A DNA stretch of 64,000 nt, from the NCBI GenBank assembly GCA_964106915.2, contig OZ066923.1, one strand, 5' to 3'. Numbering within the stretch: the stretch's first letter is position 1; the number at the start of each line of letters is the position of its first letter. The notes under the pieces were generated by a model that ran no database searches, had not been told where the DNA came from, and saw nothing but the letters and a program-made list of their open reading frames with translations. Origin of the DNA: Podarcis gaigeae (taxonomy: Eukaryota). Made by a program: the position numbers and the translations under genes. Below are positions 5,681 to 43,397 of the stretch, one piece after another.

Positions 5681-6049
5681 TACAGTCATTAGAATCTAGT
5701 AGGAAATAGAAATGTGGAAGAGTACATTTTTTAAAAGAATGTATTGGAGCAATTTAGCCTAATTTTGGACACACTGGGATGGAAGGCGGTGCGAGGATGA
5801 CAGTTCCTGTGAGAGGGCTTCCCTTGCTCTGCAGCTCTCCAATGTGCTCTGGAGAATCAAGAGAACCCCGGGAACAGTGCCTGAGGCAAGGAAAGAGGAG
5901 ATTGTTGAATTCTACTCACTGGGTTGTATCCAATAGCAGTCCTACTCAGAGTAGACCCACTGAAGTTAATAGACATGACTAAGGAAGGTTTATTCCAGCC
6001 ATGTCCAACTCCCAAGGGACTGCAATCTACTCCCACTATAAAAAAACAA

Positions 6050-6171
6050 ATAATAAATAACAAGATGAAAGATGAAAAAAAATAATAATTCCAGTGTCAC
6101 CTTTAAGATCGACTAAATATAAGCTTTCAAGGTATGAGCTTTCGTGTGTAATACACACTTCATCAGATACT
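6050..6171 (-). mobile_element. Penelope-like element pseudo-LTR fragment
   Basis: Similar to 23627-23839 (TTCCAGT..CACCTT..AGA.C.ACTAA..GGTATGAGCTTTCGTGTG); flanked by CACTAT(A)7-8CAA duplication at 6034-6049 and 6172-6188. Confidence 0.85.
6132..6170 (-). ncRNA. Minimal type I hammerhead ribozyme motif
   Basis: Minus strand reads GUAU-CUGAUGA-A-GUGUG-UAUUA-CACAC-GAAA-GC-UC^AUAC: complete core, 4-bp stem I, stem II and palindromic AGCU stem III. Confidence 0.85.
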
Positions 6172-7509
6172 CACTATAAAAAAAACAACTGGCAGTGATC
6201 TATACATAGGATCGACCAAAGTTGTTGAGCTTTTTGGAGGGAGAAAGACCCACAGTTGTTTGTCTGTTTTCTGGGGGTTTTTTTGGCGGGGGGCAATCAA
6301 TCAGGATCAACCAGGGATGCCCCACAAATGACCAGTTGGACATCCCTGATTTATTCCTTTCAGTGGGTTTACTCTCAGGTTAATGTTAATAACCCCTTTC
6401 AATTAAAATATAGGCGATGGCTTGCGTCCAGCGGTGTAATTTTGCTAGCACAAACCCTAGACTTGCATAATTGGCAAGTCCCATGTTGGTTTAGCCTCAC
6501 TCAAGATGTTCTCCAATCACTAGCACTAGTGCACATAGGAAAATCCTCCTTGCCACTTCAATATGCTGAGCAACAGCTGCAGAACTAGCGCTAGCTGTGA
6601 GGTTTGGCACGCTGGTACTTACACAACCATTGCCACAAACAGAAACTGCTGGCAGAATTGTGGAAGCTCATCATCCATGAGAAAGGTATCCTTGGGTATC
6701 ATTAAATGTTAGATTTATGCAGATCAGCAGGAATTAATATTCTGGGAAATGTCATTTGAATGTAAGTAAACAAGCCTATCCCTTATATTATTATTTTCAA
6801 ACTGGCAAGCAGCATGAGCTCTCCCCCACCCCCAGACCTGTCTTACATTAATTCAGTAACATCATCATTAGTTTATTCCAGTGTGCAGATGGTTGCTTTA
6901 TTACTGGTATCAAAGAACGAAAACATTTCGGGCTAAAACATACTGAATGTTAAATGAAAATAGGTCTTTGAACAAGTTACAAATGATAGTTTTATTAAAG
7001 AAATCTTTTAAAAATGCTGGAGTTTTTTGAAAGGCTTGCTCTCACTATTCATAGAATCGTAGACTCGGAGGGGGCCATCTGTGAACTATAAATACACCTA
7101 ACAATCTATAGGGCCTGCATTGCAAGTGGCAGTTTTCTTCTGCCACCATTAGAGCAAGTCCTTCTGTGTTGGATTAATTTCTGTTTCAGCAGCCTGGGAA
7201 TGTAGACAAGCTGCTTGAAGAAGTGTGGCTGACCACTTGCTCCTTTGACCATTGTCCATCTTGGCTTCTTAAAGTCAGCCCTGGGGAGAGAGCAATTCTT
7301 CACCAGAGGAGGGGAAAGTACCACTTGCCTTGAAGGAGGCTGAGATGTGCCACTCCCTAAGAAGACCTCCCTGGTCCATCAGCTGGTGCTCCCTTTTGGG
7401 GCAAGGTGCTCAAGAGGGTGGCAGCGGCACAGCTTCATGCATAACCAGAAAAGAGTGAATACCTGGACCCATTTCATTCTCACTTCTGGCCAATCATAAC
7501 ACTGGTCAG

Positions 7510-8062
7510 GGACACACCCTGATAACCTTTATCGGGAGAGCTGTGGCAGGGAGTCTGACTCTGCTTGTTCTTCTTGACCCCGGTATCCTTCTGGGCTGAT
7601 TCAAGAGATTGGGGTTAAGGCCACTGTACTTCAGTGATTCTCCTCCTACCTCTAGCACTATTTCCAGAAAGTAGTTATGACATGCCACTGTTTGATGCCA
7701 TAGACCAGGCATAGGCAAACTCGCCCTCCAGATGTTTTGGGACTACAATTCCCATCATCCCTGACCACTGGTCCTGTTAGCTAGGGATGACGGGAGTTGT
7801 AGTCCCAAAACATCTGGAGGGCCGAGTTTGGGGAAGCCTGCCATAGATGATATCCTCTTCCCCATTCTATTTAACCTCTATATGAAGCCTCTGGGAGCTG
7901 TCACCAGGAGTTTTGGAGTGAAGTGTCACCAATATATGGATAACACTCAGCTCTGTCTCTCTTTTCTGTCTGAATCAGGAGAGCCAGCTGAGGTGCTAGA
8001 TGGGTGTATGGATGCAGTGATGAGCAGAATGTGGGCCAAGAAAGCAAAGCTGGACTCTGAAA
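7510..8062 (+). mobile_element. Decayed L2 reverse-transcriptase fragment
   Basis: LLVLLD upstream, then ILFPILFNLYMKPLGAVTRSFGVKCHQYMDNTQL (YADD decayed to YMDN); interrupted by a MITE. Confidence 0.85.
7706..7840. mobile_element. hAT hairpin MITE
   Basis: CAGGC...GCCTG ends, long internal inverted repeat, TSD CCATAGAC / CCATAGAT. Confidence 0.9.
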
Positions 8063-21289: not shown

Positions 21290-23159
21290 TTTTTTTTTTT
21301 TCATGTGTAATTTTTATTAGTTTACATAAATCAAAATACAAGACAGACTATAATATTCCACTTAATATCACACATATTTTAAAAGTGACTTCCTTCAACC
21401 TTTCCACAAATCATCCGTATTAATAAAGGCAAATAATTCCGCATTTCTTATTTTGTAGTGCCGTTAATCATTCTAGTTCATCTGTTTTTCTTTAGACATT
21501 ACCCTTTGCTTCTTACAGAGCTCCCTTAAAACCCACTAGTGTTATCTGTCCATCGCTTAAGTTTTCCAGATATTTCGTAAGACTTTCCCAATCTTTTACA
21601 AACCTCTGGTCTTTTATATATCTGATTTTCCCTGTCATCTTATCCATCTCCACATAATCTAGTAATTTTGATCTCCAATCCTCAATTGTCGGCAAACCCT
21701 CTAATTTCCAATTTTTAGCTAACAGGACCCTTGCTGCCGTTGTTGCGTACTGAAACAGCTTGTAATCTTTCCTTTTTATCTCCCTTCCTACCAATCCCAG
21801 CAGGAATGCCTCGGGTTTTTTAACAAAAGTATAGCTTAAAATTTTCTTCATTTCATTATACACACTCTCCCAGAACCCTTTAACCTTTTGGCATTCCCAC
21901 CACATATGGTAGAAGGTCCCCTCTCTTTCCTTGCACTTCCAGCATTTATTACAGGATCCGTACATTCTGGCTAATTTAACGGGAGTCATATACCAACAGT
22001 AGAACATTTTCATTAGATTCTCCTTAAGTGTCACACAAGCCGTAAACTTAAGATGTTGTTTCCATAGTTTTTCCCATTCTTCGAAGTAGATGTTACGGCC
22101 AAAGTCTTTGGCCCAGTATGTCATTACCGACTTGACTTCCTCATCAATTAGATTCCAGTCCAGTAACTGATTGTACATTTTAGACAAAGTTTTTATATTA
22201 TTTTCCAGGATCTCAATTTGGAATCTAGAGTTTTTATCAGCATATCCTTTATCTTTGGTATCTTTCCTAAACATGTCATTTATCTGGAAGTAGTGTAGCC
22301 AATCATAAACTTGGTTCTTGACCTGCTCGTACGGCCTCATTTTCCACTTTCCTTCCTCTTTCATGACCAGTTGTTCATATGTGGCCCAATTGGCCCTCAT
22401 ATTGGTCTTTTTAACGGACATAACCTCTAATGGTGACAGCCAGTGGGGTGTTTTTGGTTCTAGCACGTCTTTATACCTTTCCCATACCTCAATCAGTGGG
22501 CCCCTAAATATGTGATTTCCAAATTCCTTATGCGTTCTCCTCCGCCCATGCCACAAGTAGGCGTGCCACCCAAATCGATTGTCGTGGCCCTCTAAGTCCA
22601 ACACTTCTCTGTCCTCCAGATTGATCCATGTCTTTACCCAGCATAGGCATGATGCCTCGTAATATAATTTCAGATCTGGCAGGGCGAAGCCTCCCCTTTC
22701 CTTCACATCCGTCAACAATTTAAATTTTATTCTGGGCTTCTTCCCCTGCCAGATGAATTTTGAGATCTCCCTATGCCAGACTTTAAATATCCTTGTACCT
22801 TTGATCACTGGGATATTTTGGAAGAGAAATAATATTCTTGGAAGTACGGACATTTTAATTGTGGCTATTCTACCCCAAAATGACAATCTGAGCCTGCCCC
22901 ACATTTCTATATCTTTCTTAATTCCTTTCCATACTATTTCATAATTATTTTTAAATAAATCTATATTTTTTGGCGTTACCCATACTCCTAGATATTTCAC
23001 CCTCTTAATCACCTCTAATTCCGTTTCTCTTTGTAGTTCTTCAACTTTGTCCTTGTGCATATTCTTAACTATCATTTTTGTTTTCCTTTTATTAAGTTTG
23101 AAGCCCGATACTTTTCCAAATTGATCAAATTCTTCAAGTACCTCTTTTGTTGAGTCTAA
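21290..23159 (-). mobile_element. L1-clade LINE, 5'-truncated, young
   Basis: Poly(A) tail (T-run at 21290); 10-bp TSD TGACCTCTTA at 21280-21289 and 23160-23169. Confidence 0.96.
21513..23159 (-). CDS. L1 ORF2 C-terminal part (end of RT, DUF1891-like region, CCHC zinc knuckle); no start codon of its own
   Basis: 549 open codons with FGKVSGFKLNKRKT, KYLGV, GGFALPDLKLYY and CWKC-x5-TFYHMWWEC; the first 8 residues of the listed ORF come from flank/TSD. Confidence 0.9.
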   Translation of the reverse strand, partial: LDSTKEVLEEFDQFGKVSGFKLNKRKTKMIVKNMHKDKVEELQRETELEVIKRVKYLGVWVTPKNIDLFKNNYEIVWKGIKKDIEMWGRLRLSFWGRIATIKMSVLPRILFLFQNIPVIKGTRIFKVWHREISKFIWQGKKPRIKFKLLTDVKERGGFALPDLKLYYEASCLCWVKTWINLEDREVLDLEGHDNRFGWHAYLWHGRRRTHKEFGNHIFRGPLIEVWERYKDVLEPKTPHWLSPLEVMSVKKTNMRANWATYEQLVMKEEGKWKMRPYEQVKNQVYDWLHYFQINDMFRKDTKDKGYADKNSRFQIEILENNIKTLSKMYNQLLDWNLIDEEVKSVMTYWAKDFGRNIYFEEWEKLWKQHLKFTACVTLKENLMKMFYCWYMTPVKLARMYGSCNKCWKCKEREGTFYHMWWECQKVKGFWESVYNEMKKILSYTFVKKPEAFLLGLVGREIKRKDYKLFQYATTAARVLLAKNWKLEGLPTIEDWRSKLLDYVEMDKMTGKIRYIKDQRFVKDWESLTKYLENLSDGQITLVGFKGAL

Positions 23160-23626
23160 TGACCTCTTAGATACAACAGCCAAATGACATCCTTCTAGTC
23201 TTGAAAAACAACATCACTTACAGTATTGATTCCCCTCCCAGCAATGTTGCATTGACAAAAGGCAGCAGGGCTCTCACTCCGGCGGTTATGCTCTAATTGT
23301 TGTATGGTACCAAAAACATTTGGAGCAGAGTTCAGAAGACGCAGACAACCATTTCTAACCGGAGTATCATTGGTACCTCCTGCAGAGAAGTGATTTATTC
23401 ACACGCAAAGCTACCACCCAACAGAAATCATAGTGGTTCAATGTCTCATCTCCCATAAAGGCAACCAAGTAGTAAACAAGCTGGGGAGTATTGGGGAAAA
23501 TGCAACTGAAGCCTTTGCTGGAGCTTGTCACTTCCACCCTTACCTCTGACCATGAGGGTGACATCCTTTGGCACAGCAATTAGGGACTAAGAGTAAACAC
23601 ATATTTCAGGGACTGTTGTGGTCTAG

Positions 23627-23839
23627 TTACAGATAGGTAGCCGTGTTGGTCTGCCATAGTCAAAACAAAATAAAAAAATTCTTTCCAGTAGCACCTTAAA
23701 GACCAACTAAGTTAGTTCTAGGTATGAGCTTTCGTGTGCATGCACACTTCTTCAGATTCTTCAGGTACGAAAGCTCATACCTAGAACTAACTTAGTTGGT
23801 CTTTAAGGTGCTACTGGAAAGAATTTTTTTATTTTGTTT
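23627..23839. mobile_element. Penelope-like element with inverted pseudo-LTR pair
   Basis: Begins GTTACAGATAGGTAGCCGTGTTGGTC; perfect inverted repeat 23661-23735 / 23767-23841; 13-bp TSD TGTTGTGGTCTAG at 23614-23626 and 23840-23852. Confidence 0.92.
23722..23759 (-). ncRNA. Minimal hammerhead ribozyme motif with weakened stem I
   Basis: Minus strand GAAU-CUGAAGA-A-GUGUG-CAUG-CACAC-GAAA-GC-UC^AUAC; one mismatch in stem I at the inversion junction. Confidence 0.75.
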
Positions 23840-41890: not shown

Positions 41891-42111
41891 CCATCAATAT
41901 TATTTGATTTGATAAATTTCCAGCTCACCAACTGGGCTGGAAATAATTATTTGAGCTGAGAATATCTCCTTCCCAACTTCTTTTAATAAAAAAGATCTGC
42001 TAGCTCTTCCTTGCTTATGTATGGTCCTCCAGGTGTGACTCTCCCATCAGCCCCAGCCAGCAGAGCTGATGGCCAGGGATTCTGGGAGCTATAGTCCAGC
42101 AACATCTGGAG

Positions 42112-42245
42112 CAGGCATAGGCAAACCCAGCCCTCCAGGTGTTTGGGACTACAATTCCCATCATCCCTGACTACTGGTCCTGTCTGCTAGGGATGATGGG
42201 AATTGTAGTCCCAAACACCTGGAGGGCCGAGTTTGCCTATGCCTG
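42112..42245. mobile_element. hAT hairpin MITE inserted in an older relative (about 42020-42275)
   Basis: 15-bp TIR CAGGCATAGGCAAAC; perfect TSD ATCTGGAG at 42104-42111 and 42246-42253. Confidence 0.95.
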
Positions 42246-43397
42246 ATCTGGAGGATCTCAGGATCTCCATCCCTAATGCAGGTGCTCTGCTTAGCCTTGC
42301 TGAAATACTTCCCTCATTTCCCACAAACACTTGGCTCAGTTTGTGCAGATCTGCGTATTCTCCTTCTTCCTATTGATTGCTTAAATGGAACCCAAGCTCT
42401 GCAAAAGGATTACACAAGGCTTTTCCTGGTCCATTTATCTTCTAAATTGTGAACTCAACAAGGGGAAACAGAAATGATATTTCTTAACACCCTTTGGTTT
42501 TCGCTGCTAGAGGCATCATTTGTGGGCATTTTGGCAACCCCTGGCACATCAACTTGGCATTTCACATCATTTGCTTCCATATTTTCATATGAATTTTTAA
42601 TCAGCAGCCTGGACCTTCCTGATGTTGCCCTGAGACTGGTGCAGCTGTTTGGTTTTGATATGTTAAAGCTTTGGTTCTGTGATTGCAGTATCACAACTTT
42701 TTATTGCTAACACTTCATTAGAAGACTGGGCCAGTCTTGTTAAAACAGAAACCTTCTGAATGATTCAAAAAATGTGGCATTACTAAAGGGGCAATGTTCT
42801 ACAGATGTTATCCCAGGTGTCTCATGCCAGACCGTAATCAGCAAGATCTTTTTTTTTTTTTAAAGAACACAGACTTCCCTGTGTTACATGGTCTCTGCAG
42901 CATTAGAATAGATTGCATTGTTTTCCTGATTTTTCTCCAGGTAGCTCTTGCTATGTAGTGTTTCAGCACTCTATATAAAAGCTTTGACACAAACTGTTGA
43001 CACCAGCAACATGACCTTCTGTTTCTTTACTGCAAAGTCAGCAGCTCAGAGATCAGGGACCTGGTTCACCTCCAGTTTTTGCTTTATTTTACTTCTTAAT
43101 TACAGAATTTTAATGGCTAGGGCCTCTCTGTCTCCTAACACCTTGCTGCCGGAGTCATGATTTATTTGGGTTTTTGAGAGCAAATCTCTTAGCAAATCTC
43201 ATCCCTATGAAGGTGTACCTAAGCTAATGAATGTCAGTGAGTTCCAATATGAGCTTCCTAAAGAATACAATGATGTTTTTAAATGGTTGGTGAAAAACTG
43301 TGAAATATATAGAAAACAGAATCATGGAACTATGGAACTCACTCCCATAGGGGGCTGTGATGGCCACTAACTTGGATGGCTTTAAAAGATATTTAGA

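What the first reader, a model, noticed from the sequence alone, without database searches (positions are those of the whole stretch)
6132..6170. Intact minimal hammerhead ribozyme on the minus strand
Seen: GUAU CUGAUGA A GUGUG UAUUA CACAC GAAA GC UC^AUAC, with every core nucleotide present, stem I GUAU/AUAC, an extra A after A9, and stem III reduced to palindromic AGCU. Established: Penelope-like retroelements carry such minimal type I hammerheads in their pseudo-LTRs, thought to cleave as dimers through the palindromic stem III. Inference: any minus-strand transcript through here could be cut between 6136 and 6135. The class is known; activity of this copy is untested.
Basis: partly seen in the sequence, partly recalled or inferred. 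Interest (0 to 1): 0.7.

Follow-up and report, generated by a model that had tools for sequence, protein, structure and literature searches.

The report
Penelope stub starting at its hammerhead
This is a real but already described miniature self-cutting RNA motif, one of more than 11,000 in the genome, carried in a 123-base leftover of a Penelope-like jumping gene; such leftovers mostly begin at the motif's first base, often with an extra G, which likely marks the capped, uncut start of the RNA that was copied.

Summary
The motif is there as described. It is a minimal type I hammerhead of the class known from Penelope-like elements (PLEs). It lies in a 123-nt solo stub (6050-6172, minus strand; 16-17-nt target duplication) of a Neptune-type PLE whose longer copies run into a GIY-YIG ORF. 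It is not special: 11,218 intact-core motifs occur genome-wide. In its subfamily only 5 of 23 copies keep the core, and the core decays like neutral DNA. No partner, host gene or RNA evidence was found, so cleavage of this copy is unlikely and untested. The stub's 5' end tells more. In the sister subfamily 33 of 100 copies end within 7 nt at the start of helix I and 4 near the cut site. Of 100 copies ending at helix I's first G, 69 carry a non-templated G, against 11 of 100 at a control position. These stubs are likely run-off cDNAs of capped, uncleaved RNA that starts at the ribozyme. I reached this before the look-up; the scan had noted it on other genomes.

The parts
6132..6170 (-). Minimal type I hammerhead motif. 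Helix I 6170-6167 / 6135-6132; core CUGAUGA 6166-6160; extra A 6159; helix II 6158-6144; GAAA 6143-6140; palindromic AGCU 6140-6137; predicted cut 6136^6135
   Evidence: Sequence; pattern versus shuffles. Most subfamily copies have C at position 7, so U7 here is likely a CpG decay product
6050..6172 (-). Solo 123-nt stub of a Neptune-type PLE pLTR (subfamily A), without the tail; 5' end at G-AGUAU, 3' end just before the tail and ORF start
   Evidence: 44 other matches at 82-100% identity, most over query positions 19-141; longer copies extend into a GIY-YIG ORF
6172..6188 (.). Target-site duplication, copy on the element's 5' side (17 nt, T-rich on the minus strand; 6172 could belong to either target or element)
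   Evidence: Sequence; contigs of paralogous host repeats skip 141-143 nt across the stub
6034..6049 (.). Target-site duplication, copy on the element's 3' side (16 nt)
   Evidence: Sequence
23627..23839 (-). Second PLE stub (young subfamily B) with tail, a 75-nt inverted arm and an apparent 13-nt target duplication; hammerhead at 23759-23722 with helix I 5' strand GAAU (one mismatch)
   Evidence: (I6)

Best explanation
The motif is the minimal hammerhead from the pseudo-LTR of a Neptune-type Penelope-like retrotransposon, left in a 123-nt solo stub that is likely an inert, neutrally decaying relic and was likely made when the element's reverse transcriptase ran off the capped, uncut 5' end of its RNA. 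Shown: the stub's borders, its duplication, its family, its link to an RT + GIY-YIG ORF, neutral decay of sister copies, the pile-up of 5' ends at helix I, and the extra G. Inferred: (1) a TATA-type promoter just upstream starts the RNA at or one base before helix I; (2) reverse transcription begins internally near the ORF start, as shown for the anole PLE, and in the 5' pLTR reaches the RNA's end after about 95-165 nt; (3) the extra G is the copied cap; (4) templates were uncleaved. The stub lacks that promoter, and as a lone motif it would need a second copy, and perhaps the PLE protein, to cut.
For: Family. A 931-aa sister frame has RVT_1 + GIY-YIG, the CX4CxxC linker and CxxC inside GIY-YIG (features from PMC8557442). 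Abundance: 11,218 motifs, control 0. Decay in 23 distinct subfamily-A copies picked on a flanking word: G8 changed in 10 of 20 scorable, G12 in 7 of 23, C11.1 in 6 of 23; non-CpG positions 8 of 230 versus flank 25 of 483; core intact in 5 of 23. 5' ends, subfamily B: 33 of 100 at -37..-31 from the cut, 4 of 100 within 3 nt of it; per-base stop rate 0.090 versus 0.0032 further upstream and 0.0056 around the cut. Subfamily A: 10 of 23 at -40..-30 and none from -16 down. Genome-wide, 15,691 exact 30-mers lie just downstream of the motif and 2,664 just upstream. Extra G: 69 of 100 listed versus 11 of 100 at a control position, Fisher p 1e-17 (hand counts; test; first 30 rows confirmed by script). 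2,385 versus 322 copies end at those two positions. TATA-like words lie at -33 (B) and -29 (A, in L035 but not L018). 3' ends cluster near 96 and 132 nt, matching two initiation sites. PMC11167929: unprocessed RNA is the main insertion substrate. PMC11702581 (one passage): an extra G at full-length L1 junctions reflects capping.
Against: No RNA data exist here, so neither the start site nor the cap is observed. The control junctions are mostly fold-backs, so they do not separate a cap from a general C-adding bias at any run-off end. At this copy the G is also present in the template and in the target, so the cap is not shown for it. Only 6 of 60 loci gave a clean duplication (two of them tandem repeats), and only 2 fix the junction exactly. 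The 5'-end sample comes from the first 5.3 Mb of one contig and counts both arms of inverted pairs. The template reads pyrimidines + CAG right before the hot spot, like a splice acceptor. The insertion is shared by two related organisms, and whether their cores are intact was not resolved.
Confidence: 0.78

Rival explanations
1. This copy is an active ribozyme that cuts minus-strand host RNA, pairing in trans with abundant PLE transcripts through AGCU (subfamilies A and B share helix I and AGCU, so they are cross-compatible).
For: Core and both helices are intact, which holds for few sisters (core intact in 5 of 23). Dimers and trimers cleave weakly in vitro (PMC4209133). The insertion is shared with related organisms.
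Against: The intact state fits chance: C7>U removed one CpG. Monomers were inactive (PMC4209133). The host flank offers a competing helix. No host exon was found among 112 of 176 open frames scanned. The cis partner is 17.6 kb away and mismatched.
Confidence: 0.08
2. The 5' hot spot is a 3' splice site: PLE or host read-through RNA is spliced to the CAG before helix I, as the Drosophila virilis Penelope intron ends at helix I.
For: A pyrimidine tract + CAG precedes the motif in both subfamilies. There is precedent in PMC4209133 and PMC2377424. 2,020 copies begin G-UGUAU, right at that G.
Against: No shared upstream exon at the junctions. 2,385 copies end one base further in, where the template has no AG, and 69 of 100 of these carry a G that is not in the template.
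Confidence: 0.08
3. Reverse transcriptase stalls or switches template at the folded ribozyme, so the hot spot reflects RNA structure and not an RNA end.
For: 21 of 100 ends lie at -30..-16, many at the palindromic helix II in fold-back pairs.
Against: The main peak lies beyond the whole fold and not at its 3' edge (stop rate 0.090 versus 0.0056). Stalling does not explain the extra G.
Confidence: 0.06

Closest known systems
[quoted passage not shown]
   Same: [quoted passage not shown]
   Different: Helix II is 5 bp (6 with U-A) against 7-8 bp in the schistosome examples. In the parts read, that paper does not relate copy ends or transcript starts to the motif.
PAc (Poseidon) of Anolis carolinensis (Frangieh et al. 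2024, PMC11167929)
   Same: C-terminal GIY-YIG PLE with a pLTR hammerhead, an optional tail and two 3' end points, AT-rich targets, and uncleaved RNA as template
   Different: This family has the CX2-5CxxC linker of Neptune/Nematis. Its AUG lies 99 nt (B) or 131 nt (A) after helix I's first G, whereas PAc's ORF starts inside the ribozyme.
Non-LTR retrozymes (bioRxiv 10.64898/2026.07.22.740005)
   Same: Short non-coding, PLE-derived units with a type I hammerhead
   Different: This copy is a monomer with a target duplication, not a tandem array; that preprint's criterion of two or more consecutive hammerhead units is not met.
Full-length L1 insertions with an extra 5' G (PMC11702581, one passage)
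   Same: Non-templated G at the 5' junction, read as a copied cap
   Different: Here the capped end is reached after about 100-165 nt because synthesis likely starts internally, so 'complete' cDNAs are tiny stubs.

Membership tests
PLE minimal type I hammerhead | Core C3 U4 G5 A6 N7 G8 A9 ... G12 A13 A14 A15.1 ... U16.1 H17 | tested here: met
PLE minimal type I hammerhead | Short helix I (4-5 bp), helix II closed by G10.1-C11.1, extra base between 9 and 10.1, palindromic helix III remnant | tested here: met
   features from PMC4209133
PLE minimal type I hammerhead | Located in a PLE pLTR | tested here: met
   downstream of the GIY-YIG stop, upstream of the ORF start and tail
PLE minimal type I hammerhead | Compensatory changes in helices across families | tested here: inconclusive
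   Subfamilies A and B have identical helices and differ only in N7 and loop 2. A search for other helix II sequences gave 110 matches; the 100 listed are almost all point mutants of B.
PLE minimal type I hammerhead | Self-cleavage as a dimer | not testable with these tools
   Needs an assay
Rfam hammerhead families | Covariance-model match | tested here: not met
   No hammerhead hit at E<=5 or E<=10
Neptune/Nematis-type EN+ PLE | Single ORF with RT followed by C-terminal GIY-YIG | tested here: met
   Sister subfamily B, about 80% identical over the endonuclease region, frames of 931 and 813 aa; for subfamily A only the GIY-YIG end was recovered
Neptune/Nematis-type EN+ PLE | CX2-5CxxC linker and two cysteines between GIY and YIG | tested here: met
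   definition in PMC8557442
Neptune clade specifically | RT phylogeny groups with Neptune rather than Nematis | not tested
   No reference RTs on hand; the bioRxiv passage lists Neptune and Poseidon as the clades found in vertebrates
Non-LTR retrozyme | Tandem array of two or more hammerhead units | tested here: not met
   Solo copy with target duplication

The most novel reading that the evidence does not exclude
In these PLEs the pLTR promoter starts the RNA on the first base of hammerhead helix I, so the ribozyme is a 5'-terminal decapping switch. A cut would shed a capped piece of about 35 nt, 65-95 nt ahead of the AUG. Because cutting needs a dimer, it would act only when PLE RNAs are abundant or bound by the dimeric PLE protein, and cut RNAs are not integrated. 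The thousands of short stubs, this one included, are strong-stop-like cDNAs that record the capped start.
Probability: 0.3. Interest if true: 0.72.

Novelty: new member of a known kind. Interest (0 to 1): 0.4.

Why it matters
The single motif matters little: it is one of more than 11,000 and likely inert. The family pattern bears on an open question, namely what PLE hammerheads do (PMC8557442 calls their function unclear). If stubs end at a capped start placed exactly at helix I, the transcription start can be read from DNA alone. The integrated templates would then be uncut, in line with the in vitro work on the anole element. The ribozyme's likely target would be the cap-bearing 5' end of the element's own RNA, rather than separation of tandem copies. 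CAGE or 5' RACE and a TPRT assay can test this directly.

Tried and rejected
Rfam scans found no hammerhead. No RNA holder was listed by the run search; this is no evidence on expression. Pfam on 112 of the 176 open frames of 75 aa or more found only two LINE-type RT remnants and one weak DUF match; short exons would be missed, so genic context stays open. The idea that cleaved RNA is the template was rejected: 4 of 100 B ends lie within 3 nt of the cut and 0 of 23 A ends. A covariation test failed for lack of divergent families. A hairpin between upstream UUCAG and the core, as a read-through inhibitor, was considered: core pairing was 0.95 versus 0.90 (B) and 0.70 versus 0.58 (A), which is not discriminating. 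An unconstrained co-fold of two 39-mers preferred an intermolecular helix II duplex, not the AGCU dimer; this is not informative on activity. Contigs from related organisms break inside the motif, so orthologous cores could not be read. Lunse et al. (PMC5785218) is not held; only its title was seen in a reference list. Supplements of PMC4209133 (reptile alignments) and PMC11167929 (Fig. S2, copy ends) were not seen and may already show the 5' pile-up.

Full report
1. Observation. A motif pattern finds this site and a second one at 23727-23755, against none in 100 shuffles. Rfam has no hammerhead hit here, and the 39-mer is not unusually stable (z -0.88).

2. What it lies in. A DNA search of the own genome gave 45 matches, a lower bound, most over the same 123 nt, window 6050-6172. 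The stub is flanked by a 16/17-nt direct repeat (6034-6049, 6172-6188). It sits inside an older host repeat whose other copies skip 141-143 nt here, which fits stub plus duplication. Longer sister copies extend 500 nt or more upstream into an ORF end with a GIY-YIG domain. A second, much younger subfamily B, about 80% identical over that region, gives frames of 931 and 813 aa with RVT_1 and GIY-YIG. It has the CX4CxxC linker that PMC8557442 (passages read) assigns to Neptune and Nematis. The motif therefore lies in the pLTR of a Neptune-type PLE, 99 nt (B) or 131 nt (A) before the AUG. Contigs of two related organisms span the stub's 3' junction, so the insertion predates their split; nearby unique flanks differ by about 3-4% in letters.

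3. How ordinary. A pattern demanding the intact core and part of helix I matches 11,218 times (control 0); the 100 listed rows are all subfamily B. In B, 60 of 67 in-register copies keep the core, and 6 have lost G12. For subfamily A, 24 copies were picked on a word outside the core and one duplicate was dropped. The core is intact in 5 of 23. G8 is changed in 10 of 20 scorable copies, G12 in 7 of 23 and C11.1 in 6 of 23, all CpG sites. Non-CpG positions on the 3' side changed at 8 of 230 and flank positions at 25 of 483. This is neutral decay. The window copy's U7 replaces the family's C7, which removed one CpG and helps explain its survival.

4. Can it cut? PMC4209133 (parts 1-2 of 4 read) found no activity for single minimal motifs and low activity for dimers and trimers. 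PMC11167929 (parts 1-2 of 4 read) found that the anole PLE ribozyme cut only with protein present, that cleavage was not needed for insertion, and that no RNA-seq reads ended at the cut. PMC6765202 (passages) summarises the dimer model. Here the only same-strand partner found in the window is 17.6 kb away, with GAAU in place of GUAU. The host flank favours a competing helix, though the folding model is weak for hammerheads. No host exon was detected. Activity of this copy is unlikely but untested.

5. Where copies begin. For all 100 listed B copies picked by a 30-mer downstream of the cut, 5' ends were mapped. 33 lie at -37..-31, 8 at -45..-38, 21 at -30..-16, 15 from -15 to +13 (4 within 3 nt of the cut), 11 at -46..-250, and 12 run further. 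The stop rate per base is 0.090 at the start of helix I, 0.0032 upstream and 0.0056 around the cut. The -30..-16 group is largely fold-backs at the palindromic helix II. Genome-wide, exact 30-mers fall from 15,691 just downstream of the motif to 2,664 just upstream. In A, 10 of 23 end at -40..-30, the window copy at -37, and none from -16 down.

6. The extra G. 2,385 B copies have a non-T letter directly before helix I's first G, where the template has T; the pattern admits about three quarters of such copies. Among the 100 listed that letter is G in 69, C in 17 and A in 14 (hand count; two rows are point mutants of longer copies and were kept; the first 30 rows were confirmed by script). Four bases further in, only 322 copies end and 11 of 100 have G (Fisher p 1e-17). 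Another 2,020 copies begin G-UGUAU with no second G (T precedes in 23 of 30), which fits a start one base earlier with the G from the cap. In 2 loci a target duplication abuts that G exactly. The window copy has the same form: target T, then G, then AGUAU. TATA-like words lie 33 nt (B) and 29 nt (A) before the G; PMC3846280 (passage) notes a TATA plus initiator in a rotifer pLTR. An extra G marks capped full-length L1 insertions (PMC11702581, one passage).

7. Mechanism. Inferred: an upstream pLTR promoter starts a capped RNA at helix I. The PLE protein nicks AT-rich DNA and starts cDNA internally at the tail; 3' ends cluster near 96 and 132 nt, as for the anole element. In the 5' pLTR the enzyme runs off the cap after about 95-165 nt, copies the cap as a G, and the product is joined directly or after folding back. 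This gives promoterless stubs that start with an intact, uncut hammerhead. The window copy is one such stub. The splice-site, stalling and active-copy rivals are weighed above. The cap itself is inferred, since the control does not exclude a general C-adding bias at run-off ends.

8. Novelty. The motif is a new member of a described class. The start-site and cap reading did not appear in paper searches or in the parts I read, but I did not see the supplements, and the library lacks most subscription papers. Other papers seen: bioRxiv 10.64898/2026.07.22.740005 (part 1 of 5 and passages), PMC2377424 (abstract, one section, passages: D. virilis starts 46 nt before an intron, which PMC4209133 says ends at helix I), PMC10018344 (one passage, not relevant). 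The scan's own notes describe the same pile-up, and twice the extra G, on other genomes; I found them after and do not count them as evidence.

9. Verdict. A real, known-class motif, probably inert at this locus. The family-level junction signature is well supported in DNA and directly testable. Interest 0.4.

Noticed in passing
window 23627-23839 (-): Subfamily B stub with tail, a perfect 75-nt inverted arm and an apparent 13-nt target duplication; it also ends at the start of helix I.
   Followed up: partly
L257 (G000:C1 about 9,792,050-9,792,330): Four hammerheads in a head-to-tail array of 75-nt units, each restarting at G-UGUAU: a miniature retrozyme-like array, perhaps made by repeated template jumps from the RNA's 5' end.
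   Followed up: no
L212, L220, L249: Sequence from about 40-60 nt into the PLE ORF is joined directly in front of the G at helix I, suggesting a jump from one RNA's 5' end onto another RNA near the initiation region.
   Followed up: no
G000:C1:185348/185410 and 2761892/2761978: Inverted pairs fold back symmetrically at the AGCT palindrome or at palindromic helix II.
   Followed up: partly
L088:2499-5291 (-): An uninterrupted 931-aa PLE frame with both pLTRs cut off, inserted in other repeat sequence.
   Followed up: partly
window 21513-23213 (-): 566-aa open frame of a LINE ORF2 C-terminal part (weak RVT_1), next to the second PLE stub.
   Followed up: no
window 7723-7822 and 42109-42248: Palindromic MITE-like repeats; the first matches Rfam mir-5408 below the gathering score on both strands.
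   Followed up: no
window about 5995-6049 and 6187-6243: Older high-copy host repeat into which the stub inserted; not classified.
   Followed up: no
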